IMG/VR virus record: IMGVR_UViG_2585427767_000007
DNA: 34,558 bases
Strand: one strand, 5' to 3'
Origin: a virus
Lineage: Duplodnaviria > Heunggongvirae > Uroviricota > Caudoviricetes > Peduoviridae
Part shown: piece after piece, positions 1 to 34,558 of the stretch
Layout: the number at the start of each line of letters is the position of its first letter
Numbering within the stretch: position 1 is the stretch's first letter
Notes under the pieces: model-generated
What the model was told of the DNA's origin: nothing
What the model saw: the letters and a program-made list of their open reading frames with translations, nothing else
Database searches by the model: none
Program-made: the position numbers and the translations under genes

Positions 1-981
1 TTATAACGTCACTCCGCCTTTTAGTGGATTCAGAGCGACGGCATTTTGCAGATAGTCAGGCGCAAGGTGCGCATAGGCCATCGTCTGCTGAATGCTCGCA
101 TGTCCCAGAATCTGTTGCAGTGCGATTATATTGCCCCCATTCATCATGAAATGGCTTGCGAATGTATGCCGCAGGATGTGGGTTGCCTGATTGGGTGGTA
201 TATCAGGTTTCACTCTGCGTAAAATCCCGCAAAATTTCTCATAATCAACTTTGAATAATTTGGCGCTGGCCTCCTCTTTAACTTTTTTCTCCAGTTCCTC
301 AGAAATCGGCACGGTTCGCTTTTTACCGTTTTTGGTTTTCAGGAAGGTAACCCTGCAATTTGTAATCTGTGCTGGTTTTAGCGTGGCAACTTCCGTCCAT
401 CTTCCTCCAGTGCTCAGACATAAAAGCGCGACAAGTAAGTCATCACCAGCCAAAACATTTAACAGTTTTTCGATTTCTGCTTTTTCCAGGAACGTCATTT
501 CAGGGTTGGCCTCCGCCAGTGGCGGCAGTCCGTGAATTGGGTGTTGCCCGGAAAATTCATCCAATTGAATTAATTTTGTGAACATGCCGGATAATCGGTA
601 CATGTCACGGTTTATCGTTGCGGCACTGATACCATCACGTAGTCGCATGGAACGATAATCCATCAAAGCCCTTTTGCTCATCCTGCTCACTGGTATATCA
701 CCTATGCCGCTGATGGTTTTGAGTAGATGATTAAACTCTTTTGTTCCATGCCCGTGGTTTTGCCCGTGATATTTCCACCAGATGTCCAGCAACTCACTCA
801 AAGTCCGGCGGTCTGCTCGCTGGCCTCCCCATTCTTTCTGACTGGCATTGGCGATTGTGTATCGCTCAAATGCTAGTGCTTCAGCTTTTCTTTCGAATTT
901 CCTGCGGATGCGTTTTCCGTCGCGACCGCGAGGTCTAATGTCCACTTCATAGCGACCATCATCGAGCTTCTTAATTGCCAT
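1..981 (-). CDS. int: Phage integrase, P2-type tyrosine recombinase
   Basis: Minus-strand ORF ending at window position 1. C-terminal HxxR...Y catalytic region (HILRHTFASHF...AYAHL) typical of tyrosine recombinases. N-terminus MAIKKLDDGRYEVD resembles remembered P2 Int; ATG at 979-981 has a GGAGGG Shine-Dalgarno 8 nt upstream. An alternative in-frame ATG at 1009-1011 would add 10 aa. Confidence 0.9.
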   Translation of the reverse strand: MAIKKLDDGRYEVDIRPRGRDGKRIRRKFERKAEALAFERYTIANASQKEWGGQRADRRTLSELLDIWWKYHGQNHGHGTKEFNHLLKTISGIGDIPVSRMSKRALMDYRSMRLRDGISAATINRDMYRLSGMFTKLIQLDEFSGQHPIHGLPPLAEANPEMTFLEKAEIEKLLNVLAGDDLLVALLCLSTGGRWTEVATLKPAQITNCRVTFLKTKNGKKRTVPISEELEKKVKEEASAKLFKVDYEKFCGILRRVKPDIPPNQATHILRHTFASHFMMNGGNIIALQQILGHASIQQTMAYAHLAPDYLQNAVALNPLKGGVTL

Positions 982-1050
982 AAGAAAGCCCTCCGGCGCT
1001 GTATTCACCATCTTGGTAGCAAATGGTGAAAATGTAATCTTTATATAGAG

Positions 1051-1344
1051 TTAGCCAATCCTTTTCTCGGAGTGGTTGGACTCTGTTGACTCTGGCCCAA
1101 TGTGCGCGAGAGCCGGTGCGATTTGTCCTGCGTCCGGCGCGGTTTTATCTGTCATAAGCCATAGAGCATATTTTTGGAATGTGGGATGCATAGTGATTTT
1201 TAGCAAAGCTGTGCCACCGGGTTCAAAGTTTCCTCCTTCATATTTTTTAAGTGTGCTTAGCGGTAACTCTATGATTTCACAGAATTTTGATTGGCTTAGC
1301 CCTTCAGCCTCACGCAAGGCCTTAATCTTTTCGCTTAATTTCAT
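1051..1344 (-). CDS. C: Immunity repressor, P2 C-like HTH protein
   Basis: 97-aa ORF next to and co-oriented with int. N-terminal helix-turn-helix-like segment (LSQSKFCEIIELPLSTLKKYEGG); C-terminal ...QIAPALAH resembles remembered P2 C. ATG verified at 1342-1344. Confidence 0.8.
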   Translation of the reverse strand: MKLSEKIKALREAEGLSQSKFCEIIELPLSTLKKYEGGNFEPGGTALLKITMHPTFQKYALWLMTDKTAPDAGQIAPALAHIGPESTESNHSEKRIG

Positions 1345-1465
1345 TTGACATGGTGCCTATATAGGGACTAAATTCCCTCAAAACTGGAACCTATATAGGT
1401 TCCATTGATTTGAGAATAAACCAGCGTCTAAACGGTTTTGAGTGGTTTAGAAAGGGCTGGATCCT
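1345..1465. promoter_or_regulatory. Early control region between C and cox with candidate rightward promoter and two palindromic operators
   Basis: TTGACA at 1345-1350. CCTATATAGG occurs twice (1356-1365 and 1390-1399); the second lies inside a perfect 18-bp palindrome GGAACCTATATAGGTTCC (1386-1403). Position corresponds to the P2/186 face-to-face Pe/Pc switch region. Confidence 0.5.
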
Positions 1466-1753
1466 ATGAGGGTACCATATATGGACGCTGAAAATTATGT
1501 GATTCAGTATCCGCTTGATGCGGTTCATGTGGATAAATTTGCTGATTTATTAGGGAAGCCAAAGACAGCCGTCAGTGAAATGGTGAAGGCAAATAAATTA
1601 CCAATTATTGAATTGCGTGATCCTTGCAAACCGAAGGCTCGTGCCGGTGAAAAATGGGTTTTCATTCCTGAGTTTAATCGCGCTGTACGTGAGGCGTTTT
1701 ATAACCGACCGGTTGAACAGCGTGATGCATGGCTTTTGTGGATGGGGTTGTGA
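1466..1753 (+). CDS. cox: Cox-like excisionase/early repressor
   Basis: First gene transcribed rightward, diverging from C. Small basic protein; C-terminal ...RDAWLLWMGL resembles remembered P2 Cox. Start may instead be the ATG at 1481, which has a GAGGG Shine-Dalgarno. Confidence 0.7.
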   Translation: MRVPYMDAENYVIQYPLDAVHVDKFADLLGKPKTAVSEMVKANKLPIIELRDPCKPKARAGEKWVFIPEFNRAVREAFYNRPVEQRDAWLLWMGL

Positions 1754-1755
1754 TT

Positions 1756-1926
1756 ATGAATGAGCCGCGTTGTATTGCTCAGTTACTGCGTAACGAAAGC
1801 CCAAGGGCGATTGACTTCACCATCACCCACGGGAAGGGTCGCAAGGGAATCATTATCCGCACCAAAAAACAGAGTCCGTTAAAAAAGGCTCTGACCTTTC
1901 TGAAAAGCCGGAGGGTCTGGAAATGA
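1756..1926 (+). CDS. Small basic hypothetical early protein (56 aa)
   Basis: ORF between cox and the next early gene; ATG at 1756 is 2 nt after the cox stop. Start is uncertain (the track ORF starts at the in-frame ATG at 1729, inside cox). No recognisable motif. Confidence 0.4.
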   Translation: MNEPRCIAQLLRNESPRAIDFTITHGKGRKGIIIRTKKQSPLKKALTFLKSRRVWK

Positions 1927-2423: not shown

Positions 2424-2486
2424 GTAATTAACCAGAGTTTTTAACGCACTTAATTGTGCGGGGCTTCTTTTTGCCTGGAGAAAGTC

Positions 2487-2711
2487 ATGCATACAGTTTC
2501 TGAAAATCAGTGCGGTAAATACGCATTACTGCTGCAACAGGCCAGAACCGAAGCACAGGCCGACGCGGCGACGCGCTTTTCTTCTCATCTTGACGCCATG
2601 ATTCGCCACATCACAAAGGCGGAGTTATCCCGCGTGGAGATAGTCGAGCTGCTCAGTCAGGAGTCGGAAAAATTTCACAATATCGGATTGTCTCGCGGGG
2701 AGGGACTTTGA
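2487..2711 (+). CDS. Hypothetical early protein (74 aa)
   Basis: ATG at 2487 preceded by GGAGAAAG Shine-Dalgarno; stop overlaps the next start (ATGA-type coupling at 2709-2713). Confidence 0.55.
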
Positions 2712-3013
2712 TGTCCTGTTCTCATTCAGTTGTATTACTGAATAACGCCTTAAAAATCGCCGTTATGGAAAATGGTGATTTGTCTCTTATTCAACTTTGT
2801 CTTGATAAAGAAAAACGCGACATCACTGAATCTGTTATCGCGATTTATCAGAATGAATTAAACCTCCTGTCTGATGTGGTCAATTTACTTGTTAAACGCG
2901 CTGTATTCCACAAGCAAATTTCCTCAGTGGATGAACTGACGAAATTAACGACAGAAATCGCCAGTTATTGCGCTGATGAATTTAAGAAGCTGAACGACAA
3001 AAGGAGCTGGTAA
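2711..3013 (+). CDS. Hypothetical early protein (100 aa)
   Basis: In-frame ATG at 2711 (the track start at 2708 is TTG). Translationally coupled to flanking genes. Confidence 0.6.
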   Translation: MSCSHSVVLLNNALKIAVMENGDLSLIQLCLDKEKRDITESVIAIYQNELNLLSDVVNLLVKRAVFHKQISSVDELTKLTTEIASYCADEFKKLNDKRSW

Positions 3014-3237
3014 TGCCGGACAACGTAGATTTTATTCAGGAACAACAGGCTGAATTACTGGAGCGCCAGATTAACGCGGCAAGGGTAAAACATTGCGGTG
3101 TTTCTGCGCTGGTTTGCGAAGAGTGTGACGCGCCAATACCTGCTGCCCGTCGTGCGGCTTATCCGTCAGCCACGCGTTGTGTTTCCTGCCAGTCAGTCTT
3201 TGAAGCAAAAAACAAGCATTACCGGAGAACGGCATGA
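3013..3237 (+). CDS. TraR/DksA-family C4 zinc-finger protein
   Basis: AAGGAG Shine-Dalgarno before ATG 3013. Protein carries CxxC...CxxC (CEECDAPI...RCVSCQ), the four-cysteine signature of TraR/DksA-type zinc fingers. Confidence 0.75.
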   Translation: MPDNVDFIQEQQAELLERQINAARVKHCGVSALVCEECDAPIPAARRAAYPSATRCVSCQSVFEAKNKHYRRTA

Positions 3238-3512
3238 GTATTCGTATTGAAATTGGCGAACGTTATGTCGTTACCAGTGACAGCTTTCAGTTTATTCTCC
3301 ACGAGAAAAAGAGAGCGGAAAGCGGTAAAAACGCCGGTCAGGAATGGCTGGCGGTGGTTGGTTATTATCCGAAATTAAGCCAGCTCGTTTCCGGCCTGAT
3401 GCATCACGATATTCTGACCGGAAGCGCAAAATCTTTTGCCGATTTAAACACGCAGGTTGAGCAGCTCAGCAAGCGTTGTTCAGAGGCGTTCTCCAGAGGA
3501 GCGTCTGAATGA
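3234..3512 (+). CDS. Hypothetical early protein (92 aa)
   Basis: ATG 3234 with GGAGAAC upstream; stop overlaps the start of the next gene. Confidence 0.6.
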   Translation: MSIRIEIGERYVVTSDSFQFILHEKKRAESGKNAGQEWLAVVGYYPKLSQLVSGLMHHDILTGSAKSFADLNTQVEQLSKRCSEAFSRGASE

Positions 3513-4516
3513 TTACTGATGCTCGTTGCCATACTGAAAATACCATCAATGTTATTTTTGTTTCAGGTGGAAAGGACAGCCTTGCTCAGTGGCTTGTCGC
3601 TATTGAAGAAAATGTACCCATATTGCCGGTTTTTGCTGATACGGGACATGAACATCCACAGACAATGAAATATCTGGATTATCTGGAAAAACGGCTTGGC
3701 CCAATTAAAAGGGTCAGGGCTGATTTTTCCTGCCGGATTGAATCAAAGCGCAAGTTTATCCAGACCAAATGGCCTGATTTGTTGGTTAACGATTGTGGAA
3801 TGTCGGAAGAAGAAGCGCACCAGCGCATCAGTTGTGCGCTGGAAATTCTCAAACCAACGGGTATCCCGTTTCTTGATTTGTGTCTGTGGAAGGGGCGTTT
3901 CCCATCAACCAAAGCCAGATTTTGCACATTTGAACTGAAACATGAACCCGTGCGTTCTCAGGTAATCCTGCCTTTACTCAATGAATTTGAGGAAGTGATT
4001 AGCTGGCAGGGAGTGCGTGCTCAGGAATCGCCATCACGCGCAGCTTTACCTGTCTGGGAAGAGGATGCAGACAACACCCCCGGATTGCATGTATATCGCC
4101 CGATTTTGCACTGGAAGCATGAAGATGTATTTGCAATAGCCAGAAGACATGACATTAAGCCAAATCCGTTATATCTGCAGGGGTGTGGCCGTGTTGGTTG
4201 TATGCCATGTATTCATGTCCGTAAATCTGAACTGGCAGAAATTTTTCGCCGGTGGCCGGAGGAAATAAAGCGGGTTGCTGAATGGGAACGACTGGTTGCG
4301 TCGTGCTCCCGTCGGGGAAATTCCACTTTTTTCCCATCCACACATGATCCGTTACGCGCAGAACGTCGTATTGAGGTTGTAACAGTCGAGGCATACGGAA
4401 TTGAAACCTACCATGACTGGACAATGACAACGCGTGGGGGTACTCAGTTTGATTTACTGGCTTCGGCGAATGATAAAGCCGTTTGCAGTAGTGTCTATGC
4501 CGGTGTATGTGAATGA
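3509..4516 (+). CDS. PAPS-reductase-like PP-loop protein (phosphoadenosine phosphosulfate reductase family)
   Basis: N-terminal VIFVSGGKDS PP-loop (SGGxDS) motif and C-terminal cysteine cluster (GCGRVGCMPC). Translationally coupled to the downstream gpA gene (ATGA overlap at 4513-4516). Confidence 0.75.
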   Translation: MITDARCHTENTINVIFVSGGKDSLAQWLVAIEENVPILPVFADTGHEHPQTMKYLDYLEKRLGPIKRVRADFSCRIESKRKFIQTKWPDLLVNDCGMSEEEAHQRISCALEILKPTGIPFLDLCLWKGRFPSTKARFCTFELKHEPVRSQVILPLLNEFEEVISWQGVRAQESPSRAALPVWEEDADNTPGLHVYRPILHWKHEDVFAIARRHDIKPNPLYLQGCGRVGCMPCIHVRKSELAEIFRRWPEEIKRVAEWERLVASCSRRGNSTFFPSTHDPLRAERRIEVVTVEAYGIETYHDWTMTTRGGTQFDLLASANDKAVCSSVYAGVCE

Positions 4517-6804
4517 GTCATTCTTTCCAGGAGCAATACACCTGCGTACCTCCGTCTGCGTTTGCCGCAGGCACCGGTAAGGCGTTTACCGGTGCTTATG
4601 CATGGAATACGCCACGCGAGGCTGTCGGGCGCGAAAGACCCCTTACACGTGACGAGATGCGTCAGGTGCAAGGTGTTTTATCCACGATTAACCGCCTGCC
4701 TTACTTTTTGCGCTCGCTGTTTACTTCACGTTATGACTACATACGGCGCAATAAAAGCCCGCTACACGGGTTTTATTTCCTCACATCCACTTTTCAGCGT
4801 CGTTTATGGCCGCGCATTGAGCGTGTGAATCAGCGCCATGAAATGAACACCGACGCGTCGTTACTGTTTCTGGCAGAGCGTGACCACTATGCGCGCCTGC
4901 CGGGAATGAATGACAAGGAGCTGAAAAAGTTTGCTGCCCGTATCTCATCGCAGCTTTTCATGATGTATGAGGAACTCAGCGATGCCTGGGTGGATGCGCA
5001 TGGCGAAAAAGAATCGCTGTTTACGGATGAGGCGCAGGCTCACCTCTATGGTCATGTTGCTGGCGCTGCACGTGCTTTCAATGTTTCCCCTCTCTACTGG
5101 AAAAAATACCGTAAAGGGCAGATGACCACGAGGCAGGCATATTCTGCCATTGCCCGTCTGTTTAACGATGAGTGGTGGATTAGTCAGCTTAAAGGCCAGC
5201 GTATGCGCTGGCATGAGGCGTTACTGATTGCTGTCGGGGAGGTCAATAAAGACCGTTCTCCTTATGCCAGTAAACATGCCATTCGTGATGTGCGTGCACG
5301 CCGCCAGGCAAATCTGGAGTTTCTTAAATCGTGTGACCTTGAAAACAGGGAAACCGGCGAGCGCATCGACCTTATCAGTAAGGTGATGGGCAGTATTTCT
5401 AATCCTGAAATTCGCCGGATGGAGCTGATGAACACCATTGCCGGTATTGAGCGTTACGCTGCAGCAGAGGGTGATGTGGGGATGTTTATCACGCTGACCG
5501 CGCCGTCAAAGTATCACCCGACACGTCAGGTCGGAAAAGGCGAAAGTAAAACCGTCCAGCTAAATCACGGCTGGAACGATGAGGCATTTAATCCAAAGGA
5601 TGCGCAGCGTTATCTCTGCCGTATCTGGAGCCTGATGCGCACGGCATTCAAGGATAATGATTTACAGGTCTACGGTTTGCGTGTCGTCGAGCCACACCAC
5701 GACGGAACGCCGCACTGGCATATGATGCTTTTTTGTAATCCGCGCCAGCGTAACCAGATTATTGAAATCATGCGTCGCTATGCGCTCAAAGAGGATGGCG
5801 ACGAAAGAGGAGCCGCGCGAAACCGTTTTCAGGCAAAACACCTTAACCGGGGCGGTGCTGCGGGGTATATCGCGAAATACATCTCAAAAAACATCGACGG
5901 CTATGCACTGGATGGTCAGCTCGATAACGATACCGGCAGACCTCTGAAAGATACTGCCGCGGCTGTTACTGCATGGGCGTCAACGTGGCGCATCCCGCAA
6001 TTTAAAACGGTTGGTCTGCCGACAATGGGGGCTTACCGTGAACTACGCAAATTGCCGCGCGGCGTCAGCATTGCTGATGAGTTTGACGAGCGCGTCGAGG
6101 CTGCACGCGCCGCCGCAGACAGTGGTGATTTTGCGTTGTATATCAGCGCGCAGGGTGGGGCAAATGTCCCGCGCGATTGTCAGACTGTCAGGGTTGCCCG
6201 TAGCCCGTCGGATGAAGTTAACGAGTACGAGGAAGAAGTCGAGAGAGTGGTCGGCATTTACGCGCCGCATCTCGGCGCGCGTCATATTCATATCACCAGA
6301 ACGACGGACTGGCGCATTGTTCCGAAAGTTCCGGTCGTTGAGCCTTTGACTTTAAAAAGCGGCATCGCCGCGCCTCGGAGTCCTGTCAATAACTGTGGAA
6401 AACTCACCGGTGGTGATACTTCGTTACCGGCTCCCACACCTTCAGAGCACGCCGCAGCAGTGCTTAATCTGGTTGATGACGGTGTTATCGAATGGAATGA
6501 CCAGGAGGTCGTGAAGGCGCTAAGGGGCGCATTAAAACACGGACTGAGAACACCAAATCGTCAGCAAAGAGCCGGAAGCCCGTTAAAACCGCATGAAATA
6601 GCGCCATCGGCCAGAATGACCCGGTCGGAACGAATGCAAATTACCCGTATCCGCGTTGACCTTGCTCAGAACGGTATCAGGCCGCAGCGATGGGTGCTTG
6701 AGGCGCTGGCGCGTGGCGCGACCGTAAATTATGACGGGAAAAAATTCACGTATCCGGTCGCTGATGAGTGGCCGGGATTCTCAACAGTAATGGAGTGGAA
6801 ATGA
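4513..6804 (+). CDS. A: Rolling-circle replication initiation endonuclease gpA
   Basis: 763-aa ORF. HUH motif (PHWHMMLF) and downstream tyrosine pair region (YIAKYISKNIDGY) characteristic of P2 gpA-type relaxase/initiators. Size close to remembered P2 gpA. Confidence 0.9.
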   Translation: MSHSFQEQYTCVPPSAFAAGTGKAFTGAYAWNTPREAVGRERPLTRDEMRQVQGVLSTINRLPYFLRSLFTSRYDYIRRNKSPLHGFYFLTSTFQRRLWPRIERVNQRHEMNTDASLLFLAERDHYARLPGMNDKELKKFAARISSQLFMMYEELSDAWVDAHGEKESLFTDEAQAHLYGHVAGAARAFNVSPLYWKKYRKGQMTTRQAYSAIARLFNDEWWISQLKGQRMRWHEALLIAVGEVNKDRSPYASKHAIRDVRARRQANLEFLKSCDLENRETGERIDLISKVMGSISNPEIRRMELMNTIAGIERYAAAEGDVGMFITLTAPSKYHPTRQVGKGESKTVQLNHGWNDEAFNPKDAQRYLCRIWSLMRTAFKDNDLQVYGLRVVEPHHDGTPHWHMMLFCNPRQRNQIIEIMRRYALKEDGDERGAARNRFQAKHLNRGGAAGYIAKYISKNIDGYALDGQLDNDTGRPLKDTAAAVTAWASTWRIPQFKTVGLPTMGAYRELRKLPRGVSIADEFDERVEAARAAADSGDFALYISAQGGANVPRDCQTVRVARSPSDEVNEYEEEVERVVGIYAPHLGARHIHITRTTDWRIVPKVPVVEPLTLKSGIAAPRSPVNNCGKLTGGDTSLPAPTPSEHAAAVLNLVDDGVIEWNDQEVVKALRGALKHGLRTPNRQQRAGSPLKPHEIAPSARMTRSERMQITRIRVDLAQNGIRPQRWVLEALARGATVNYDGKKFTYPVADEWPGFSTVMEWK

Positions 6805-7043: not shown

Positions 7044-7329
7044 AAATGTATGCGGTATGTATGGAAAACCGCACCATAACGAGAAAAATATCCAGTATGA
7101 ATCTGCTTAGATTAATAGATCGCAGAAGAGAGAAGAGGTATTGAGCCATGATGCCAATTTGTGAGATACCGAAGTGTTATGACAAAGATGCTTTTAATGT
7201 TACATTCCGTCATTACTCTTATTAATCATCTATTTCAATAGATTAGGATTAATCTGGCTATGTCATTGAAGATGCTCGATGTCTCGATATTTCTTAGCTA
7301 AAATAGGAGGCACTAAGGGAGAGGATGTT

Positions 7330-8388
7330 ATGTCTAAAATTTATGCTATTGACCTTTTTTGTGGTGCAGGTGGATTAACCCATGGTTTGATACAAGCAGG
7401 GATTGGTGTCATTGCTGGTATTGATTTAGATCCAGATTGCAGATGGGCGTATGAGCACAACAACAAAGCTAAATATATAAATTCAGATATTTGTGATGTA
7501 ACAGGTCAAGACCTTATGCGCTTGTGGCCAGAACAGGGAATAAGACTTCTTGCTGGTTGCGCCCCATGTCAGCCTTTTTCAAGTTATCGAAAAGGCAAGA
7601 TTGAATCTGCTGACGGCAAATGGAAACTCTTAGGTGAATTTGGACGGCTAGTCAAAGAATCTTCACCAGACTTGATAACCATGGAAAACGTACCAAGGTT
7701 ACAAAAGCATAAAATTTTCTTGGATTTTGTTAAAGACCTTAAGAAAGGTGGGTATAAGGTCTGGTATGGCGTCGTTGACTGTCAACAATATGGTGTGCCT
7801 CAGAAAAGGCAGCGATTAGTTTTACTGGCATCCAAGATCAGTGATGTTGTGTTGATTCCTCCAACACATTCAGAAGATAACTACGTAACAGTGAAAGATG
7901 CTATTTCTCATTTGCCAGAGATAGATTCAGGGCAAGCTGATGAGAAAGATCCATTACACGTTGCTCAGGGAATGAGCCAATTAAATCTCGAAAGGATTCG
8001 TCAATCAAAACCAGGTGGAACATGGAAGGATTGGGATCCTGAGTTGGTTGCTGCGTGCCATAAGAAAAGTAGTGGCAAAACTTACACAAGTGTATATGGA
8101 CGGATGAGATGGGATGAACCAGCTCCTACAATGACAACCCTATGTTTTGGTTTTGGTAATGGACGTTTTGGGCATCCTCAACAGGATAGGGCCATTTCTT
8201 TACGTGAGGCAGCTATCTTTCAAAGTTTTCCGGAGAACTATGTTTTTTCTGAACCAGGTGCAAAGATCACATTTGCAACAGTTGGTCGCTTGATTGGTAA
8301 TGCCGTTCCGGTAAAACTAGGTGAAGTTGTAGGAAAATCATTTATTAATAGTCTATCTGGGGGTAGTAGGAGAAATGGCGGAGCATAG
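7330..8388 (+). CDS. DNA (cytosine-5)-methyltransferase, Dcm-type
   Basis: Canonical C5-MTase motifs in canonical order: motif I FCGAGG (IDLFCGAGGLTHGL), motif IV PCQPFS (catalytic Cys), motif VI ENV, motif VIII QKRQR, motif X GNAV. ATG 7330 with GGGAGAGG Shine-Dalgarno; the track start at 7279 is a longer upstream extension. Lower GC than the phage backbone. Confidence 0.9.
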   Translation: MSKIYAIDLFCGAGGLTHGLIQAGIGVIAGIDLDPDCRWAYEHNNKAKYINSDICDVTGQDLMRLWPEQGIRLLAGCAPCQPFSSYRKGKIESADGKWKLLGEFGRLVKESSPDLITMENVPRLQKHKIFLDFVKDLKKGGYKVWYGVVDCQQYGVPQKRQRLVLLASKISDVVLIPPTHSEDNYVTVKDAISHLPEIDSGQADEKDPLHVAQGMSQLNLERIRQSKPGGTWKDWDPELVAACHKKSSGKTYTSVYGRMRWDEPAPTMTTLCFGFGNGRFGHPQQDRAISLREAAIFQSFPENYVFSEPGAKITFATVGRLIGNAVPVKLGEVVGKSFINSLSGGSRRNGGA

Positions 8389-10372
8389 CGAAGTTTTATC
8401 GCATGTTGATGAAAAAACACATACTTATGAGATGCTGGTTAGCTTGAGTGTTCTGGGGCATCTGGGGATCAATCTATATAGCAATGTTGCGGCAGTGATT
8501 ACGGAAACAGTAGCTAATGCATGGGATGCAGATGCTACAGAAGTGCATATAAAACTTTCTCCTGACAGAATCACTATTTCGGATAATGGTTTTGGAATGA
8601 CCATTCATGATATGAATTCGAAATATCTAACAGTTGGCTATCAAAAAAGAAATGATAAAAGCCAGCTATTAACTCCCAAGGGACGACTACCCATGGGCAG
8701 AAAAGGTATTGGTAAGTTATCTTTATTTTCTATTGCAAAAACTGTAACGGTTGAATCAATCAAGGATGGAGAACGACATGGTTTAGTTATGGAAGTTCCA
8801 AAAATAGAGCATGCAATCAAAAGTGGGGCTGGTAGATATTATCCAGAACCTTTGGATTCTGCTCAACTTTCTGTGAGTCAAGGAACATTAGTAACATTGC
8901 GTGATCTAAATCGATCTCGCATACCTGCCACTGCAACCGCTTTGCGTAAAAAGTTAGCAAGGCGTTTTTCTGTTATTGGTAGTAATGATTTTAGGGTCTT
9001 CGTTGATGGTGTAGAAGTAACAGCAAAGGAACGTGAGGACCTAAAACATGTTCAGTTCGTATGGGATATTAACTCGGGGGTAGATTTTAAAAAAGAATGT
9101 CCGGGGTTAATAACTGTAACTGACATTTCATCATTTTTGACAGAAAGTCAATTATTTAATCCTGAATGGAGCATTAAAGGGTGGATTGGTAGTATAAAAC
9201 AGCCTAGTCAGTTGAATACACCTGAAGGAAATCTAAATAGCATTGTTGTTTTATCTAGAGGTCGATTGTTTCAAGAGAACATTTTAGATGATATAAACGA
9301 TGGTGGGATATACACAAAGTATCTTACAGGGCAACTTGAGGCAGACTTCCTTGATACAGATGAAGATGAAGATATTGCAACAAGTGATAGACAACGAGTT
9401 GTTGAAGATGACCCTCGTTATCAATATTTGAAATCATTGGTTAAGATTGCCCTGAGAAAGGTTGCTGGTCAATGGAGCTCACTACGAGAAAAGCAAGGAG
9501 CAAAGGAAGCTAAAGAATCGAATCCGGTACTTGCGGAGTGGATCGGTTCATTAAAACCTGCTTCCCGAGGCTATGCAGAAAAAATGATCGCTCAAATTGA
9601 ATCGTTGCCTTTGGAGGATAAACCACAAGAGAAGAAGGAACTCTTTAAGCATGCAATTTTTGCATTTGAGCGCTTGCGTATTAAGGAAATGTCGCAGGAG
9701 CTAGCTGATGCTGTATTTTTTAATGCAGAAAAATTATTGCCATTGCTTGAGAAACAAGACGATTTAGAGGCAACATTATATTATGAGATAGCTAAGAGTC
9801 GTGTAGATGTTATTCAAAGCTTCAAAGGCCTAGTCGATAACGATGAAAAAGAAAAAGTATTGCAACGTTATCTTTTTGAACACCTTTGGTTATTAGACCC
9901 ATCATGGGAAAGAATTGATGGTTCTCCAATAATGGAGTCGCGTGTTAACCAAGAGTGGGACAAGATTGATGCTGGCCTGAGTGAAGAAGAGAAGAAAGGT
10001 CGTATGGATATAAAATATCGCTCATCTGCAGGTAAGCATATTATCATTGAACTTAAGAGAGCTAGCGTATTGACTTCTGTTGCAAATCTAGTCAGTCAGG
10101 GGAATAAGTACAGGCAGGCAGTAATTAAGTGTGCAAAAGCTGTTGACCCGGCCTCAACACCATCAATTGATGTGATTTTTGTCCTTGGTCGAGAGCCATC
10201 AGATTATGCGTTAGACCCATCTTATACTAACCTTCAGCTACAGTCAGTGAATGGTCGGATTGTTTATTATGATGGGCTAATTAATAGCGCACAGAGCTCG
10301 TATAGAGAATATACAGAGAGGCAGGCTACTGTTGCAAGGATTGCTGAAATCGTTAAAAAACTAGATGACTAG
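8375..10372 (+). CDS. GHKL/HATPase_c-type ATPase (665 aa) with C-terminal PD-(D/E)xK-like nuclease motif; candidate restriction/defence effector
   Basis: Bergerat-fold motifs near the N-terminus: N-box ETVANAWDA (ExxxNAxDA), G1 box DNGFGM, G2 box GRKGIGKLS. C-terminal region has D...ExK pattern (GRMDIKY...HIIIELKR). ATG 8375 overlaps the MTase stop by 14 nt with AGGAG upstream. Low GC. Confidence 0.8.
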   Translation: MAEHSEVLSHVDEKTHTYEMLVSLSVLGHLGINLYSNVAAVITETVANAWDADATEVHIKLSPDRITISDNGFGMTIHDMNSKYLTVGYQKRNDKSQLLTPKGRLPMGRKGIGKLSLFSIAKTVTVESIKDGERHGLVMEVPKIEHAIKSGAGRYYPEPLDSAQLSVSQGTLVTLRDLNRSRIPATATALRKKLARRFSVIGSNDFRVFVDGVEVTAKEREDLKHVQFVWDINSGVDFKKECPGLITVTDISSFLTESQLFNPEWSIKGWIGSIKQPSQLNTPEGNLNSIVVLSRGRLFQENILDDINDGGIYTKYLTGQLEADFLDTDEDEDIATSDRQRVVEDDPRYQYLKSLVKIALRKVAGQWSSLREKQGAKEAKESNPVLAEWIGSLKPASRGYAEKMIAQIESLPLEDKPQEKKELFKHAIFAFERLRIKEMSQELADAVFFNAEKLLPLLEKQDDLEATLYYEIAKSRVDVIQSFKGLVDNDEKEKVLQRYLFEHLWLLDPSWERIDGSPIMESRVNQEWDKIDAGLSEEEKKGRMDIKYRSSAGKHIIIELKRASVLTSVANLVSQGNKYRQAVIKCAKAVDPASTPSIDVIFVLGREPSDYALDPSYTNLQLQSVNGRIVYYDGLINSAQSSYREYTERQATVARIAEIVKKLDD

Positions 10373-25892: not shown

Positions 25893-26486
25893 ATGTTTAC
25901 TAAGCGACGATTAAAAAATATTAACTGGGAGGCAAGTTCAGTGATTCTTGCTATGGTTCTCTTTGTTGGAAATATATTTTATACAAATCATCGTGATGAT
26001 ATAAGCATGGAGGCTGAGAGGGACAGTATCAGAACAATGTTTGCATATGAAATCGCTAATAACCATCGCGCTCTCACTTTTCTTGATAAAACGAGACATA
26101 TTGGCTTTGACGAAAATTCGGAGCATTTTGTTGGCGAGCCTTTTGCCATTAATGTCAAATCATTAGGGGGGCCTCGCTTACAGATTGCATTAAACCAGAC
26201 TGATAAAGTGTTTAAATCCTACTTCAGCGAATTAAGTAAGCTTGGTAAAGAGGATGTTACTCTTCTTATGGACTATTACCATGAGCAAAGCATCCTGCTG
26301 GAGCGTGTAAAATCTACGTTACAGAAGATGAAAAGTGGTAATGATATTAAAGTTGATATTGATGGTTACTTATTAGAAGAACACTTCATGAATGAGCTTA
26401 ATCTTTCTAATATTTTGCTTAAACGCTATAGCCATTTGTTGTCACAATACGCTAAAGAACATAAAACAAAAGATTTACATAATTGA
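25893..26486 (+). CDS. AT-rich moron at the P2 Z/fun locus: 197-aa hypothetical protein with N-terminal membrane anchor
   Basis: ATG 25893 with AAGG upstream. Single hydrophobic segment SSVILAMVLFVGNIF near the N-terminus. Markedly lower GC than the flanking tail genes; followed by a strong terminator. Confidence 0.65.
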   Translation: MFTKRRLKNINWEASSVILAMVLFVGNIFYTNHRDDISMEAERDSIRTMFAYEIANNHRALTFLDKTRHIGFDENSEHFVGEPFAINVKSLGGPRLQIALNQTDKVFKSYFSELSKLGKEDVTLLMDYYHEQSILLERVKSTLQKMKSGNDIKVDIDGYLLEEHFMNELNLSNILLKRYSHLLSQYAKEHKTKDLHN

Positions 26487-29022: not shown

Positions 29023-31462
29023 CAATGTAAAATTACAGGTATTGCTCAGGGCTGTTGACCAGGCATCCCGCCCGTTTAAATCCATCCGTACAGCGAGCAG
29101 GTCGCTGTCGGGGGATATCCGGGAAACACAAAAATCACTGCGCGAGCTGAACGGTCACGCATCCCGTATTGAGGGATTCCGCAAGACCAGTGCACAGCTC
29201 GCTGTGACTGGTCATGCACTTGAAAAGGCACGGCAGGAGGCCGAAGCCCTTGCCACACAGTTTAAAAATACCGAACGTCCAACCCGTGCTCAGGCGAAAG
29301 TGCTGGAATCCGCAAAGCGTGCGGCGGAGGACTTACAGGCGAAATATAACCGCCTGACGGATTCTGTTAAACGCCAGCAGCGGGAACTGGCCGCTGTGGG
29401 AATTAATACCCGCAATCTTGCACATGATGAGCAGGGGCTGAAAAACCGTATCAGTGAAACCACCGCACAACTTAACCGTCAGCGCGATGCACTGGCGCGT
29501 GTCAGTGCACAACAGGCAAAACTTAACGCAGTAAAACAGCGTTATCAGGCCGGAAAGGAACTGGCCGGAAATATGGCCTCAGTGGGCGCTGCCGGTGTGG
29601 GGATTGCTGCTGCGGGAACGATGGCCGGAGTTAAGCTGCTGATGCCCGGTTATGAGTTTGCGCAGAAAAACTCAGAATTGCAGGCCGTGCTCGGAGTGGC
29701 AAAAGACTCCGCCGAAATGGCCGCGCTCCGCAAGCAGGCGCGCCAGCTCGGCGATAATACCGCCGCCTCGGCGGATGATGCGGCCGGTGCGCAGATTATC
29801 ATTGCGAAAGCGGGTGGAGATGCTGCGGCTATTCAGGCGGCAACGCCGGTCACGCTGAATATGGCACTGGCGAATCAGCGGTCGATGGAAGAAAACGCGC
29901 AACTGTTACTGGGGACTAAGGCATCCTTTCAACTGTCAAATGATGATGTCAGCCATGTGGGCGACGTGTTGTCGGCAACGATGAATAAGTCGGCGGCTGA
30001 TTTTCAGGGACTCAGTGATGCACTGACTTACCTCGGGCCGGTTGCGAGGACGGCAGGTGTAAGTCTTGAGCAGGCAGCGGCCATGACAGGTGTGCTGCAT
30101 GACAATAACATCAGGGGGTCAATGGCGGGTACGGGTAGCAGTGCCGTTGTCACCCGATTACAGGCACCGACTGGAAAAGCATGGGATGCACTCAAAGAGC
30201 TTGGCGTTAAAACCTCGGACAAAAAGGGAAATATGCGTCCGTTGTTCACCATTCTGAAAGAGATTCAGGCCAGCTTTGATAAACACAAGCTGGGAACGTC
30301 TCAGAAGGGGGAATACCTTAAAACCATTTTTGGTGAGGAAGCCCTGAAATCAGCGAACGTTTTACTGGCAGCGGCAGCAAGCGGAAAACTGGATACGCTG
30401 ACCGCCACGCTGAAAGCCTCGGACGGTAAAACGGAAGAGCTGGTTAAAATCATGCAGGATAACCTCGGCGGTGACTTTAAGGAGTTTCAGTCCGCTTATG
30501 AGGCGGTGGGGACTGACCTGTTTGACCAGCAGGAAGGCACACTGCGTAAGCTCACGCAGACGGCCACAAAGTATGTGTTAAAACTCGACGGCTGGATACA
30601 GAAAAACAAATCACTGGCGTCAACCATTGGCCTCATTGCCGGTGGCGCACTGGCGCTGACTGGTGTCATCGGTGCCATTGGTCTTGTAGCCTGGCCGGTT
30701 ATCACCGGCATCAATGCCATTATCGCGGCAGCAGGCGCAATGGGGGCAATCTTCACGACGGTTGGTAGTGCCGTTATGACGGCCATCGGGGCGATTAGCT
30801 GGCCGGTTGTGGCTGTGGTGGCCGCCATTGTCGCCGGGGCGTTGCTTATCCGTAAATACTGGGAGCCTGTCAGCGCATTCTTCGGCGGTGTGGTTGAAGG
30901 GCTGAAAGCAGCATTTGCGCCGGTGGGGGAACTGTTCACGCCACTTAAGCCGGTGTTTGACTGGCTGGGTGAAAAGTTACAGGCCGCGTGGCAGTGGTTT
31001 AAAAACCTGATTGCCCCGGTTAAAGCCACCCAGGACACCCTGAACCGTTGCCGTGACACGGGCGTCATGTTCGGGCAGGCACTGGCTGACGCGCTGATGC
31101 TGCCGCTTAATGCGTTCAACAAACTGCGCAGCGGAATTGACTGGGTACTGGAAAAACTCGGTGTTATCAACAAAGAGTCAGACACACTTGACCAGACCGT
31201 CGCCAGAACTCAAGCCGCCACGTATGGCAGCGGTGGTTATATTCCGGCGACCAGCTCTTATGCAGGCTATCAGGCTTATCAGCCGGTTACGGCACCGGCT
31301 GGCCGCTCTTATGTGGACCAGAGTAAAAACGAATATCACATCAGCCTGACGGGTGGTACTGCGCCGGGGACACAGCTTGACCGCCAGTTACAGGATGCGC
31401 TCGAAAAATACGAGCGGGATAAACGTGCGCGCGCCCGTGCCAGCATGATGCATGACGGTTAA
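29015..31462 (+). CDS. T: Tail tape-measure protein gpT
   Basis: 815 aa, alanine/glycine-rich with hydrophobic central segment; size identical to remembered P2 gpT. Confidence 0.9.
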   Translation: MSNNVKLQVLLRAVDQASRPFKSIRTASRSLSGDIRETQKSLRELNGHASRIEGFRKTSAQLAVTGHALEKARQEAEALATQFKNTERPTRAQAKVLESAKRAAEDLQAKYNRLTDSVKRQQRELAAVGINTRNLAHDEQGLKNRISETTAQLNRQRDALARVSAQQAKLNAVKQRYQAGKELAGNMASVGAAGVGIAAAGTMAGVKLLMPGYEFAQKNSELQAVLGVAKDSAEMAALRKQARQLGDNTAASADDAAGAQIIIAKAGGDAAAIQAATPVTLNMALANQRSMEENAQLLLGTKASFQLSNDDVSHVGDVLSATMNKSAADFQGLSDALTYLGPVARTAGVSLEQAAAMTGVLHDNNIRGSMAGTGSSAVVTRLQAPTGKAWDALKELGVKTSDKKGNMRPLFTILKEIQASFDKHKLGTSQKGEYLKTIFGEEALKSANVLLAAAASGKLDTLTATLKASDGKTEELVKIMQDNLGGDFKEFQSAYEAVGTDLFDQQEGTLRKLTQTATKYVLKLDGWIQKNKSLASTIGLIAGGALALTGVIGAIGLVAWPVITGINAIIAAAGAMGAIFTTVGSAVMTAIGAISWPVVAVVAAIVAGALLIRKYWEPVSAFFGGVVEGLKAAFAPVGELFTPLKPVFDWLGEKLQAAWQWFKNLIAPVKATQDTLNRCRDTGVMFGQALADALMLPLNAFNKLRSGIDWVLEKLGVINKESDTLDQTVARTQAATYGSGGYIPATSSYAGYQAYQPVTAPAGRSYVDQSKNEYHISLTGGTAPGTQLDRQLQDALEKYERDKRARARASMMHDG

Positions 31463-33119: not shown

Positions 33120-33200
33120 TGCTTTTATTTTATCTGTTTGTTTTATAAGGATAAATTAACTAAAATGGCACCATCAACAAAACCGGAAGAGGTGCTCGCG

Positions 33201-33419
33201 ATGTTTCATTGTCCTTTATGCCAGCATGCCGCACATGCGCGTACAAGCCGCTATATCACTGACACGACAAAAGAGCGTTATCATCAGTGCCAGAACGTGA
33301 ATTGCAGTGCCACGTTCATCACTTATGAGTCGGTACAGCGATACATCGTGAAGCCGGGAGAAGTCCACGCCGTAAGGCCGCACCCGTTGCCGTCAGGGCA
33401 GCAAATTATGTGGATGTGA
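33201..33419 (+). CDS. ogr: Late-gene transcriptional activator Ogr (zinc-finger)
   Basis: ATG 33201 (MFHCPLCQHAAHAR...) gives 72 aa with CxxC...CxxxxC zinc-binding cysteines (CPLC...CQNVNC); matches remembered P2 Ogr. The track ORF from 33138 begins at a TTG. Confidence 0.85.
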   Translation: MFHCPLCQHAAHARTSRYITDTTKERYHQCQNVNCSATFITYESVQRYIVKPGEVHAVRPHPLPSGQQIMWM

Positions 33420-33429
33420 TCACAAAAAT

Positions 33430-33456
33430 AGCCCCTCAGTTGAGGGGCTTTATTTA
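33430..33456 (+). terminator. Rho-independent terminator after ogr
   Basis: AGCCCCTCA-gt-TGAGGGGCT hairpin followed by TTTATTT, 10 nt after the ogr stop. Confidence 0.65.
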
Positions 33457-33612
33457 TGGTCGATGTGGACGCTATGTGGACAGTGGTTGATATAAATCCA
33501 TTTATATCATCAGGTTAGGTGCTTTTTTGTGACACCATCCCTGTCTTCCCCCACATGATGTGGGGTTTTTTTTTATCCTCAATTTGCTTGCTGCTTAATG
33601 CATTGCAGATGA
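33457..33612. other. Putative attR region (phage arm plus core), boundaries not resolved
   Basis: Between ogr and host fieF. Contains direct repeat ATGTGGAC x2 (33462-33469, 33473-33480), palindrome GATATAAAT-cca-ATTTATATC (33489-33509), and hairpin CCCCACAT-gatg-TGGGG followed by T9 (about 33549-33575). attL is not in the window, so the core cannot be confirmed. Confidence 0.4.
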
Positions 33613-33655
33613 TTTGCTTCCGTTATACTACCGTCAGTTGATAGCGGGAGTATTT

Positions 33656-34558
33656 ATGAATCAATCTTATGGACGGCTGGTCAGTCGGGCGGCGATTGCT
33701 GCGACGGCGATGGCTTCGCTGCTATTGCTGATTAAAATTTTTGCATGGTGGTATACCGGGTCGGTGAGTATTCTCGCCGCGCTGGTGGATTCGCTGGTGG
33801 ATATCGGCGCGTCGTTGACGAATTTACTGGTGGTGCGATATTCCCTGCAACCTGCCGACGATAATCACTCGTTTGGTCACGGTAAAGCTGAGTCCCTCGC
33901 GGCGCTGGCGCAAAGTATGTTTATCTCCGGTTCGGCACTATTCCTGTTTTTGACGGGTATTCAACATCTGGTATCTCCAACACCGATGACAGATCCAGGC
34001 GTCGGGGTTATCGTGACAATTGTGGCGCTAATTTGTACGATTATCCTTGTCTCGTTTCAGCGTTGGGTGGTGCGCCGGACGCAAAGCCAGGCGGTGCGGG
34101 CTGATATGCTACATTACCAGTCTGATGTTATGATGAACGGTGCAATTCTGCTGGCGCTGGGGTTGTCCTGGTACGGCTGGCATCGCGCCGATGCTCTGTT
34201 TGCATTGGGAATCGGCATCTATATTTTATATAGCGCGTTACGCATGGGATATGAGGCGGTACAGTCATTACTGGATCGCGCATTGCCTGATGAAGAACGG
34301 CAAGAAATTATTGATATCGTGACTTCCTGGCCGGGTGTTAGCGGCGCTCACGATCTTCGCACGCGGCAGTCAGGGCCGACCCGCTTTATTCAGATTCATT
34401 TGGAAATGGAAGACTCTCTGCCTTTGGTTCAGGCACATATGGTGGCGGATCAGGTAGAGCAGGCTATTTTACGGCGTTTTCCGGGATCGGATGTGATTAT
34501 CCATCAGGACCCCTGTTCCGTCGTACCCAGGGAGGGTAAACGGTCTATGCTTTCATAA
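33656..34558 (+). CDS. fieF: Host cation-efflux transporter FieF (CDF family, ferrous iron/zinc)
   Basis: 300-aa protein from ATG 33656 (GGGAG Shine-Dalgarno) matches remembered E. coli FieF/YiiP ([36 protein letters not shown]...). Terminal TAA is the last codon of the window. Confidence 0.9.

What the first reader, a model, noticed from the sequence alone, without database searches (positions are those of the whole stretch)
3013..3237. Phage-encoded TraR/DksA-type zinc-finger protein
A 74-aa protein with a C4 zinc finger (CEEC...CVSC) sits in the early operon. DksA/TraR-family proteins bind the RNA polymerase secondary channel, so a phage copy may reprogramme host transcription early in infection or after induction.
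Basis: partly seen in the sequence, partly recalled or inferred. Interest (0 to 1): 0.4.

Follow-up and report, generated by a model that had tools for sequence, protein, structure and literature searches.

The report
P2 Orf82, a known TraR-type regulator
This small zinc-finger gene is a near-identical copy of phage P2 gene orf82, whose protein has already been shown to bind bacterial RNA polymerase and turn down ribosomal RNA promoters, so the finding is correct but not new.

Summary
The ORF at 3013..3237 (+) is real. It encodes 74 aa with a C4 zinc finger (C35/C38/C56/C59) and has a strong AAGGAG ribosome-binding site. It scores above the curated cut-offs of Pfam zf-dskA_traR and of NCBIfam TIGR02419 (phage/plasmid TraR family). 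Its best solved-structure relative is F-plasmid TraR bound to RNA polymerase.

The window is a P2-like (Peduovirus) prophage of E. coli next to fieF. The protein is 73/74 identical to P2 Orf82 (A30V). Gopalkrishnan et al. (mBio 2022, PMC9239242) purified P2 Orf82 and showed four things:
- It competes with DksA for the RNA polymerase secondary-channel site.
- It inhibits rrnB P1 without ppGpp (IC50 about 250 nM, five times weaker than TraR).
- It activates thrABC and argI 2-4 fold.
- It complements a dksA-null strain.

The window protein keeps D3, D6, R46/R47 and the C-terminal helix residues. Like P2 Orf82 it has I8 in place of the A of DxxDxA.

The gene occurs at 95% identity or more in 1602 of 5426 complete E. 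coli genomes, where it is annotated as a TraR/DksA family regulator. The role of Orf82 in the P2 life cycle remains untested.

The parts
3013..3237 (+). orf82-type gene: a 74-aa TraR-family C4 zinc-finger protein that binds the RNA polymerase secondary channel
   Evidence: ORF. Pfam PF01258, TIGR02419, phrog_54. Best PDB match is F TraR, 5w1s/6n57. 73/74 identical to P2 Orf82 NP_046793.
3001..3006 (+). Shine-Dalgarno sequence AAGGAG, 6 nt upstream of the ATG (P2 has AAGGAA here)
   Evidence: Sequence; alignment with P2.
3019..3036 (+). Codons 3-8, D-N-V-D-F-I: the DxxDxA-equivalent tip motif. D3 and D6 are kept; A8 is replaced by I8.
   Evidence: Alignment with TraR, lambda Orf73 and Peduoviridae homologs. 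The same deviation is noted for P2 Orf82 in PMC9239242.
3115..3189 (+). C4 zinc-finger / globular-domain region. Contains C35, C38, C56, C59, P41-I-P43 and R46-R47 (equivalent to TraR R48/R49); A44 and A48 replace TraR E46 and K50.
   Evidence: Residue roles from PMC6970531 and PMC9239242.
3190..3234 (+). C-terminal helix segment. Q60, E64 and K68-H69-Y70 are conserved with TraR Q62, E66 and K70-H71-Y72. In TraR this segment contacts the beta-lobe Si1 insertion.
   Evidence: Helix 59-68 in the low-confidence model. TraR C-helix role.
1345..1374 (+). Pe-like early promoter (TTGACA, 18 nt spacer, TAAATT) between the repressor gene C and cox. It is the presumed source of the transcript that carries orf82.
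   Evidence: Consensus scan. The position corresponds to the annotated Pe of P2. The assignment is inferred, not measured.
2445..2472 (+). Terminator-like hairpin plus T-run between B and orf80, identical to the 'putative rho-independent terminator' annotated in P2. It may attenuate expression of orf80 through A.
   Evidence: P2 annotation.
2487..2711 (+). orf80 equivalent (DUF2732). It is the first ORF of the overlapping-ORF chain, and its position just upstream of the TraR gene is conserved across Peduoviridae genera.
   Evidence: Pfam, P2 annotation, loci L004-L008.
2711..3013 (+). orf81 equivalent (DUF5405). Its stop overlaps the orf82 start (TAATG).
3234..3512 (+). orf83 equivalent (DUF5405, a paralog of orf81). 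Its start overlaps the orf82 stop (ATGA).

Best explanation
The gene is an allele (A30V) of bacteriophage P2 orf82. It sits in a P2-like prophage of E. coli and encodes a TraR-family protein.

The protein probably works as follows. It is made from the early (Pe) lytic transcript as one link in a chain of translationally coupled ORFs (orf80, 81, 82, 83, a PAPS-reductase-family gene, then A). It inserts its N-terminal helix into the secondary channel of host RNA polymerase, with D3 and D6 near the active site. Its zinc-finger globular domain docks on the beta-prime rim helices through R46/R47. Its C-terminal helix contacts the beta-lobe Si1 insertion.

Without needing ppGpp, this binding destabilises open complexes at rRNA and ribosomal-protein promoters, which are inhibited. 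It favours open-complex formation at promoters such as thrABC and argI, which are activated.

The likely purpose is to slow host ribosome synthesis and growth, and so redirect RNA polymerase and resources to phage replication during lytic growth or after induction.

Shown by others for the 99%-identical protein: RNA polymerase binding at the DksA site, ppGpp-independent inhibition of rrnB P1, activation of thrABC and argI, dksA complementation, and growth arrest on overexpression. Inferred: the residue-level docking (by homology to TraR), expression from Pe, and the benefit to the phage.
For: - Family membership: Pfam PF01258 and TIGR02419 score above their curated cut-offs, and phrog_54 matches over the full length.
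- Solved structures: the best matches are TraR chains from TraR-RNA polymerase complexes 5w1s and 6n57 (E about 3e-10), followed by YbiI and DksA.
- Identity with the tested protein: 73/74 identical to P2 Orf82, and the gene DNA is 98% identical.
- Published P2 Orf82 data (PMC9239242): IC50 of 250 nM on rrnB P1 without ppGpp; half-maximal competition with DksA at 0.65-1 uM; 2-4 fold activation of thrABC and argI; complementation of a dksA deletion when induced with IPTG.
- Functional residues D3, D6, P41, P43, R46, R47, the four Cys, Q60, E64 and K68-H69-Y70 align with their TraR counterparts, whose roles are defined.
- Position V30 is variable and hydrophobic across homologs: I in TraR and lambda Orf73, V in three Peduoviridae homologs.
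- The early-operon position is conserved in four Peduoviridae genera.
- Coding constraint is clear.
- RefSeq already names an identical copy 'TraR/DksA family transcriptional regulator'.
Against: - Nothing was measured on this V30 allele itself.
- A8 of the DxxDxA motif is I8, and two of the three TraR residues at the beta-prime Si3 interface (E46, K50) are alanines here. This fits the five-fold weaker inhibition reported for P2 Orf82 and leaves room for a modified or attenuated mode of action.
- No phage phenotype of an orf82 mutant is reported in the papers read, so the benefit to the phage is extrapolated from lambda Orf73.
- The single-sequence structure model is low confidence (pLDDT 61). 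Its match to TraR is only weak: Foldseek E 0.045, TM 0.35.
Confidence: 0.9

Rival explanations
1. The protein acts mainly as part of a complex with one of its translationally coupled small neighbours (Orf80/DUF2732, or Orf81/Orf83, both DUF5405). This would resemble TraR of vibriophage VP882, which needs QisA for strong host growth arrest. On this reading the weak stand-alone activity of P2 Orf82 is not its full activity.
For: - In VP882 the ORF directly upstream of the TraR gene, overlapping it, encodes a partner that boosts TraR-dependent growth arrest (preprint 10.64898/2026.07.27.740977).
- Here every junction from orf80 to A has overlapping stop and start codons.
- The DUF2732-TraR adjacency is conserved in Eganvirus, Felsduovirus and Dagavirus loci.
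- P2 Orf82 binds RNA polymerase as well as TraR does but inhibits five-fold less well.
Against: - QisA has no detectable sequence relative among the early proteins of the window or of 186-like phages (best E about 0.7).
- QisA has no Pfam family.
- P2 Orf82 alone is active in vitro and complements a dksA deletion.
- Gene overlap is common in compact phage operons and is not evidence of physical interaction.
- No literature was found on DUF2732 or DUF5405 function.
Confidence: 0.1
2. Its main target is the phage rather than host ribosomal promoters. By binding RNA polymerase it might tune P2 early or late promoters, or relieve transcription-replication conflicts during rolling-circle replication. 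That would explain why it sits among the replication genes B and A.
For: - It lies between B and A in all Peduoviridae loci examined.
- F TraR activates F-element promoters (section heading).
- DksA has reported roles in replication and elongation, as stated in the VP882 preprint discussion.
- The authors of PMC9239242 leave open that some homologs regulate their own phage promoters.
Against: [quoted passage not shown]
- No P2 promoter has been tested.
- The demonstrated activities of P2 Orf82 are on host promoters.
- This is an additional role, not an alternative molecular mechanism.
Confidence: 0.15
3. It is a DNA-binding zinc-finger transcription factor of the Ogr / 186 B type, or a spurious ORF, unrelated to RNA polymerase channel binding.
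For: It is small and has a C4 zinc finger, like P2 Ogr. Overlapping ORFs exist in other frames at 3071-3235 (-) and 3098-3250 (+).
Against: - The window has its own ogr at about 33138-33419, which matches a different PHROG (phrog_603). Orf82 matches only phrog_54 and the TraR models.
- Family scores are above the curated cut-offs.
- There is strong synonymous-over-nonsynonymous bias.
- Biochemistry on the 99%-identical protein shows RNA polymerase binding.
Confidence: 0.01

Closest known systems
Bacteriophage P2 Orf82 (NP_046793, 'DksA-like zinc-finger protein')
   Same: 73/74 residues are identical and the length is the same. It has the same I8 in place of A8. The neighbours are the same (orf80, orf81, orf82, orf83), with the same overlapping stop/start junctions and the same upstream terminator-like hairpin. 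Its biochemistry is published (PMC9239242).
   Different: The window protein has A30V. Its Shine-Dalgarno sequence is AAGGAG where P2 has AAGGAA. A 1-kb PAPS-reductase-family gene lies between orf83 and A that the P2 type strain lacks.
F-plasmid TraR (PDB 5w1s, 6n57/6n58)
   Same: Similar size (73 vs 74 aa) and a CxxC-x17-CxxC zinc finger. D3, D6, P43, P45, R48, R49, Q62, E66 and K70-H71-Y72 are all conserved. Both bind the same RNA polymerase site and act without ppGpp, according to PMC9239242.
   Different: Only 39% identical. Changes are A8 to I, E46 to A and K50 to A, plus a 2-residue deletion before the finger. It scores 45 bits against a cut-off of 108 for the TraR equivalog model NF010268. 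It is encoded in a phage early operon, not a tra operon. P2 Orf82 inhibits rrnB P1 about five-fold less well.
Phage lambda Orf73
   Same: A phage-encoded TraR homolog of 73 aa with the C4 finger, D3/D6 and the RR pair. It inhibits rRNA and r-protein promoters, slows host growth and raises burst size.
   Different: It has an intact DxxDxA motif and TraR-like potency (IC50 about 50 nM). It gives little or no activation of thrABC and argI, whereas P2 Orf82 activates them. It lies in the exo-xis region, not next to replication genes.
Vibriophage VP882 TraR (gp61) with its partner QisA (gp60)
   Same: A TraR homolog, 36% identical over 70 aa, in a repressor-controlled early operon, with the upstream ORF overlapping its start.
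   Different: It requires QisA for strong growth arrest and is countered by QtiQ. No QisA relative is detectable in this window.
E. coli DksA and YbiI
   Same: They share the C-terminal C4 zinc-finger module (PF01258). DksA binds the same secondary-channel site.
   Different: DksA is 151 aa with a coiled coil and needs ppGpp. The window protein scores far below the DksA and YbiI equivalog cut-offs: 19.7 vs 115.5, 27.4 vs 105 and 46.4 vs 96 bits.

Membership tests
TraR subfamily of the DksA/TraR family (TIGR02419 C4_traR_proteo; Pfam PF01258) | Scores above the curated cut-offs of the family models | tested here: met
   PF01258 scores 43.8 bits against 24.9. TIGR02419 scores 78 bits against 59.7, covering residues 3-64 of 74.
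TraR subfamily of the DksA/TraR family | C4 zinc-binding motif CxxC-x17-CxxC spanning the globular domain and the start of the C-terminal helix | tested here: met
   C35, C38, C56 and C59 are invariant in the 10-sequence alignment.
TraR subfamily of the DksA/TraR family | Short form (about 73 aa): a single N-terminal helix in place of the DksA coiled coil | tested here: met
   74 aa. It aligns end to end with TraR. The model predicts a helix at residues 5-28, though at low confidence.
TraR subfamily of the DksA/TraR family | The two N-terminal aspartates of DxxDxA (TraR D3, D6), required for function | tested here: met
   D3 and D6 are present. Their requirement was shown for TraR and lambda Orf73.
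TraR subfamily of the DksA/TraR family | The alanine of DxxDxA (TraR A8) | tested here: not met
   I8 here, as in P2 Orf82. The 186-like, Felsduovirus and Dagavirus homologs mostly keep A8. PMC9239242 links the missing A8 to lower activity, not to loss of function.
TraR subfamily of the DksA/TraR family | Arg pair that contacts the beta-prime rim helices and Si3 (TraR R48, R49) | tested here: met
   R46 and R47 are invariant in the alignment. Their roles are described.
TraR subfamily of the DksA/TraR family | The other Si3-interface residues of TraR (E46, K50), which contribute to activation | tested here: not met
   A44 and A48 here. TraR E46A and K50A lose about half of activation. Even so, P2 Orf82 is reported to activate thrABC and argI 2-4 fold.
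TraR subfamily of the DksA/TraR family | C-terminal helix with the conserved residues that face the beta-lobe Si1 insertion | tested here: met
   Q60, E64, K68, H69 and Y70 align with TraR Q62, E66, K70, H71 and Y72. The model predicts a helix at residues 59-68.
TraR subfamily of the DksA/TraR family | Three-element fold superposable on TraR | tested here: inconclusive
   The single-sequence AlphaFold2 model has pLDDT 60.8. The top Foldseek PDB hit is TraR 6n57_M, but at E 0.045 and TM 0.35; the next hits are DksA-family chains at E about 1 or worse.
TraR subfamily of the DksA/TraR family | Direct binding to the RNA polymerase secondary channel and ppGpp-independent regulation of initiation | not testable with these tools
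   Published for P2 Orf82, which differs by one residue.
Conjugal transfer protein TraR, equivalog (NF010268) | Score above the equivalog cut-off, meaning an ortholog of F TraR | tested here: not met
   45 bits against 108. It is a family member, not the F TraR ortholog.
DksA (TIGR02420, NF033459) and YbiI (NF008243) | Score above the equivalog cut-off; for DksA, also the coiled-coil domain and ppGpp-site residues | tested here: not met
   19.7 vs 115.5, 27.4 vs 105 and 46.4 vs 96 bits. At 74 aa the protein has no room for the DksA coiled coil.
P2 Ogr / 186 B late-gene zinc-finger activators | Membership of the Ogr family | tested here: not met
   Orf82 matches only phrog_54. The window's separate ogr ORF (33138-33419) matches phrog_603 and is annotated ogrK in E. 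coli genomes.

The most novel reading that the evidence does not exclude
P2-type Orf82 carries I8, A44 and A48 where TraR has A8, E46 and K50. It could be a deliberately attenuated TraR whose full or conditional activity depends on one of its translationally coupled neighbours. The candidates are Orf80/DUF2732, whose position next to the TraR gene is conserved across Peduoviridae genera, and the DUF5405 paralogs Orf81 and Orf83. This would be a second, sequence-unrelated example of the partner or modulator logic just described for QisA and QtiQ in vibriophage VP882.
Probability: 0.1. Interest if true: 0.45.

Novelty: already known. Interest (0 to 1): 0.08.

Why it matters
Phage TraR homologs let a virus impose a stringent-response-like transcription programme without ppGpp: less rRNA and ribosomal protein, more amino-acid biosynthesis. 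That principle, and the activity of this particular protein family member (P2 Orf82), are already published.

The copy in this window adds only a common natural allele. The gene is in about 30% of complete E. coli genomes. The open questions are modest. What does Orf82 contribute to P2 burst size or induction? Do the P2-specific substitutions, or the coupled small neighbours, modulate it?

Tried and rejected
- **Single-sequence structure prediction.** pLDDT was 61. The best Foldseek PDB hit was TraR, but only at E 0.045, which is too weak to count as a structural test. A deep alignment would have needed the large protein-database search. I did not run it, because the answer does not depend on it.
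- **Search for a QisA-like partner.** VP882 gp60 has no sequence relative in the window or in 186-like loci. It also does not match the 186 CII Pfam family, despite its RefSeq label 'CII-like'.
- **Literature search on the neighbours.** The search for DUF5405, DUF2732, Orf81 and Orf83 returned only unrelated viruses.
- **Promoter scan.** It found fewer sigma-70-like sites than the shuffled controls (4 vs 7.9). The Pe assignment therefore rests on positional correspondence with annotated P2, not on the scan.
- **Rfam scan of the whole window.** No families matched.
- **PADLOC scan of Orf82.** No defence-system family matched.
- **Ogr-type zinc finger or spurious ORF.** Considered and rejected; see the rival explanations.

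Full report

Yes. The + strand carries an ORF from ATG 3013 to the stop at 3235-3237, encoding 74 aa. A fifth Cys at position 28 lies outside the motif. AAGGAG lies at 3001-3006, 6 nt before the ATG. The start overlaps the stop of the upstream ORF (TAATG) and the stop overlaps the start of the downstream ORF (ATGA).

The ORF is not a chance reading frame:
- Pfam zf-dskA_traR scores 43.8 bits against a cut-off of 24.9.
- NCBIfam TIGR02419, 'phage/conjugal plasmid C-4 type zinc finger protein, TraR family', scores 78 bits against 59.7.
- phrog_54, 'DksA-like zinc-finger protein', matches end to end at E 5e-33.
- Against P2, 3 of the 4 nucleotide differences in the ORF are synonymous.
- Against homologs from other Peduoviridae genera, synonymous sites are saturated (pS 0.79-0.92) while pN stays near 0.36.

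**2. What is the window?**

It is a complete P2-like (Peduovirus) prophage. The gene order is integrase (1-1011, -), an HTH repressor (1051-1344, -), cox, a 65-aa ORF, B, orf80 (DUF2732), orf81 (DUF5405), the finding, orf83 (DUF5405), a PAPS-reductase-family gene and gpA. The morphogenesis genes and ogr follow.

The right end of the window is the host gene fieF. The ogr-fieF junction recurs in 691 of 5426 complete E. coli genomes. Megablast against phage records finds P2 and many P2-like phages of Escherichia, Yersinia and Salmonella. Their annotations under the match include 'DksA-like zinc-finger protein', 'traR' and 'TraR/YbiI family protein'.

**3. Identity with a characterised protein**

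I fetched the annotated type genome of P2, NC_001895. The window protein is 73/74 identical to P2 Orf82 (NP_046793); the one change is A30V. The DNA is 98% identical across the gene (4 differences in 225 bases) and 99% across gene plus flanks.

Position 30 is a variable hydrophobic position: I in F TraR and lambda Orf73, and V in three Peduoviridae homologs. A functional change is therefore unlikely.

At 95% nucleotide identity or more, the gene is present in 1602 of 5426 complete E. coli genomes. Identical copies are annotated by RefSeq as WP_001113270.1, 'TraR/DksA family transcriptional regulator', with the same neighbours including the PAPS reductase gene. Copies also occur on plasmids that carry P2-like elements.

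**4. What the protein does (published evidence)**

Gopalkrishnan et al., mBio 2022 (PMC9239242), chose P2 Orf82 as one of five TraR homologs to test. Their results for it were:
- Expressed from pTrc with IPTG, it complemented a dksA deletion for growth on minimal medium.
[quoted passage not shown] - It competed with labelled DksA for RNA polymerase about as well as TraR, with half-maximal competition at 0.65-1 uM. It therefore binds the same site.
- It activated thrABC and argI about 2-4 fold.

The authors attribute the lower inhibitory activity partly to the missing A8 of the DxxDxA motif. They also cite Liu, Saha and Haggard-Ljungquist 1993 for the report that Orf82 overexpression stops cell growth, and they note that orf82 is expressed from Pe.

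**5. Residue-level comparison done here**

I confirmed the F TraR sequence against PDB 5w1s chain M and recovered lambda Orf73 from the unannotated ea22-orf61 gap. I then aligned these with the window protein, P2 Orf82, an F-like plasmid homolog and five Peduoviridae homologs.

Conserved with TraR (TraR residue to window residue):
- D3 and D6 (same numbering)
- C37, C40, C58, C61 to C35, C38, C56, C59
- P43, P45 to P41, P43
- R48, R49 to R46, R47
- Q62 to Q60, and E66 to E64
- K70-H71-Y72 to K68-H69-Y70

According to the cryo-EM work (PMC6970531) and the mBio discussion, these residues belong to three structural elements. The N-terminal helix reaches the active site. The globular domain sits on the beta-prime rim helices and Si3. 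The C-terminal helix contacts beta-lobe Si1.

Differences from TraR are A8 to I8, E46 to A44 and K50 to A48. [quoted passage not shown] The 186-like homologs keep A8 and E46, so these changes are specific to the P2 lineage.

A single-sequence AlphaFold2 model gave the expected layout: a helix at 5-28, a central region, and a helix at 59-68. Its pLDDT was only 61. TraR 6n57_M was its top Foldseek hit but at E 0.045, so I count the structural test as inconclusive.

**6. Context and expression (inferred)**

A Pe-like promoter lies at 1345-1374, between the repressor gene and cox. A terminator-like hairpin at 2445-2460 followed by a T-run lies between B and orf80. It is identical to the 'putative rho-independent terminator' annotated in P2.

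From orf80 to A, every junction has overlapping stop and start codons (TGATG, TAATG, and ATGA three times). This indicates translational coupling.

In Eganvirus, Felsduovirus, Dagavirus and an unclassified Peduoviridae phage, the TraR gene always follows the DUF2732 gene and lies upstream of gpA. The slot between TraR and gpA holds variable cargo.

**7. Rivals**

A July 2026 preprint (10.64898/2026.07.27.740977) reports that VP882 TraR forms a complex with QisA, the product of the overlapping upstream gene. QisA strongly enhances TraR-dependent growth arrest, and QtiQ inactivates the complex.

I tested whether QisA has a relative here. It does not: the best E is about 0.7 against all early proteins of the window and of 186-like loci, and QisA matches no Pfam family. 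Nothing is published on DUF2732 or DUF5405.

A partner-dependent mode therefore remains possible but unsupported; I put it at about 0.1. An additional role on phage promoters or replication is also open; I put it at about 0.15, as an added role rather than an alternative mechanism. An Ogr-type DNA-binding factor and a spurious ORF are both excluded.

**8. Verdict**

The feature is the already known and biochemically characterised P2 orf82 gene, here as a common A30V allele. Interest is low. The only untested matters are its contribution to the P2 life cycle and whether the P2-specific substitutions or the coupled neighbours modulate it.

Noticed in passing
window 2487-6804 (+): orf80, orf81, orf82, orf83, the PAPS-reductase-family gene and gpA form an unbroken chain. 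Every junction has overlapping stop and start codons (TGATG, TAATG, ATGA three times). A terminator-like hairpin (2445-2460 plus T-run), identical to the one annotated in P2, precedes the chain.
   Followed up: partly
window 2711-3013 and 3234-3512 (+): The two ORFs flanking the TraR gene (P2 Orf81 and Orf83 equivalents) both match Pfam DUF5405 (E 4e-33 and 4e-14), so they are paralogs. PHROGs labels both 'replication initiation protein', and some RefSeq phage re-annotations under the same match say 'minor tail protein'. Neither Pfam nor NCBIfam supports these labels, which look like propagated names.
   Followed up: partly
window 3509-4516 (+); loci L004-L008: A 335-aa PAPS-reductase-family protein sits between orf83 and gpA. 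It has weak PADLOC hits to SspD, BrxP and DndC. The P2 type strain has nothing in this slot. Other Peduoviridae carry different cargo there: queuine tRNA-ribosyltransferase, exonuclease plus methyltransferase, Dam methylase, or nothing. This is a variable cargo slot in the early operon.
   Followed up: partly
window 7279-10372 (+): At the position of P2 tin/old lie a C-5 cytosine DNA methyltransferase (369 aa; PADLOC MTase_II/DrmMII, E 1e-93) and an overlapping 665-aa HATPase_c_3 protein that matches PADLOC 'Type II restriction enzyme' (E 1e-94). This is probably a restriction-modification cargo in the known P2 hotspot. An otherwise similar E. coli prophage (L010) carries a DUF7380 protein there instead.
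   Followed up: partly
window 25893-26486 (+): A 197-aa ORF has no Pfam or PADLOC match and falls in phrog_3829 (unknown function). It lies between the tail-fibre-assembly gene and the sheath gene, where I recall P2 carrying Z/fun; I did not check that position here. It may be a lysogenic-conversion or defence gene.
   Followed up: no
window 1-1926: The repressor ORF (97 aa) and cox ORF (95 aa) differ in length from those of P2 (99 and 91 aa), whereas B through orf83 are 98-99% identical to P2. This suggests a different immunity module on a P2 backbone, i.e. a mosaic. Their identity to P2 was not measured.
   Followed up: no
window 33138-34558 (+): ogr is followed by the host gene fieF (CDF cation-efflux transporter), so the window is an integrated prophage. 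The window starts exactly at the integrase stop codon and ends at the fieF stop codon. The ogr-fieF junction is found in 691 of 5426 complete E. coli genomes.
   Followed up: yes
L002 1593-1814 (-) (lambda NC_001416, about 30392-30613): Lambda orf73, the best-studied phage TraR homolog, is not annotated in the lambda RefSeq record held here. It was recovered only by ORF listing in the ea22-orf61 gap.
   Followed up: yes
L009 5867-6466 (+) (VP882 gp60, QisA): RefSeq labels QisA 'CII-like transcriptional activator'. It matches no Pfam family, including the phage 186 CII family PF06892, and shows no similarity to the 186-type CII proteins of loci L004 and L005.
   Followed up: yes
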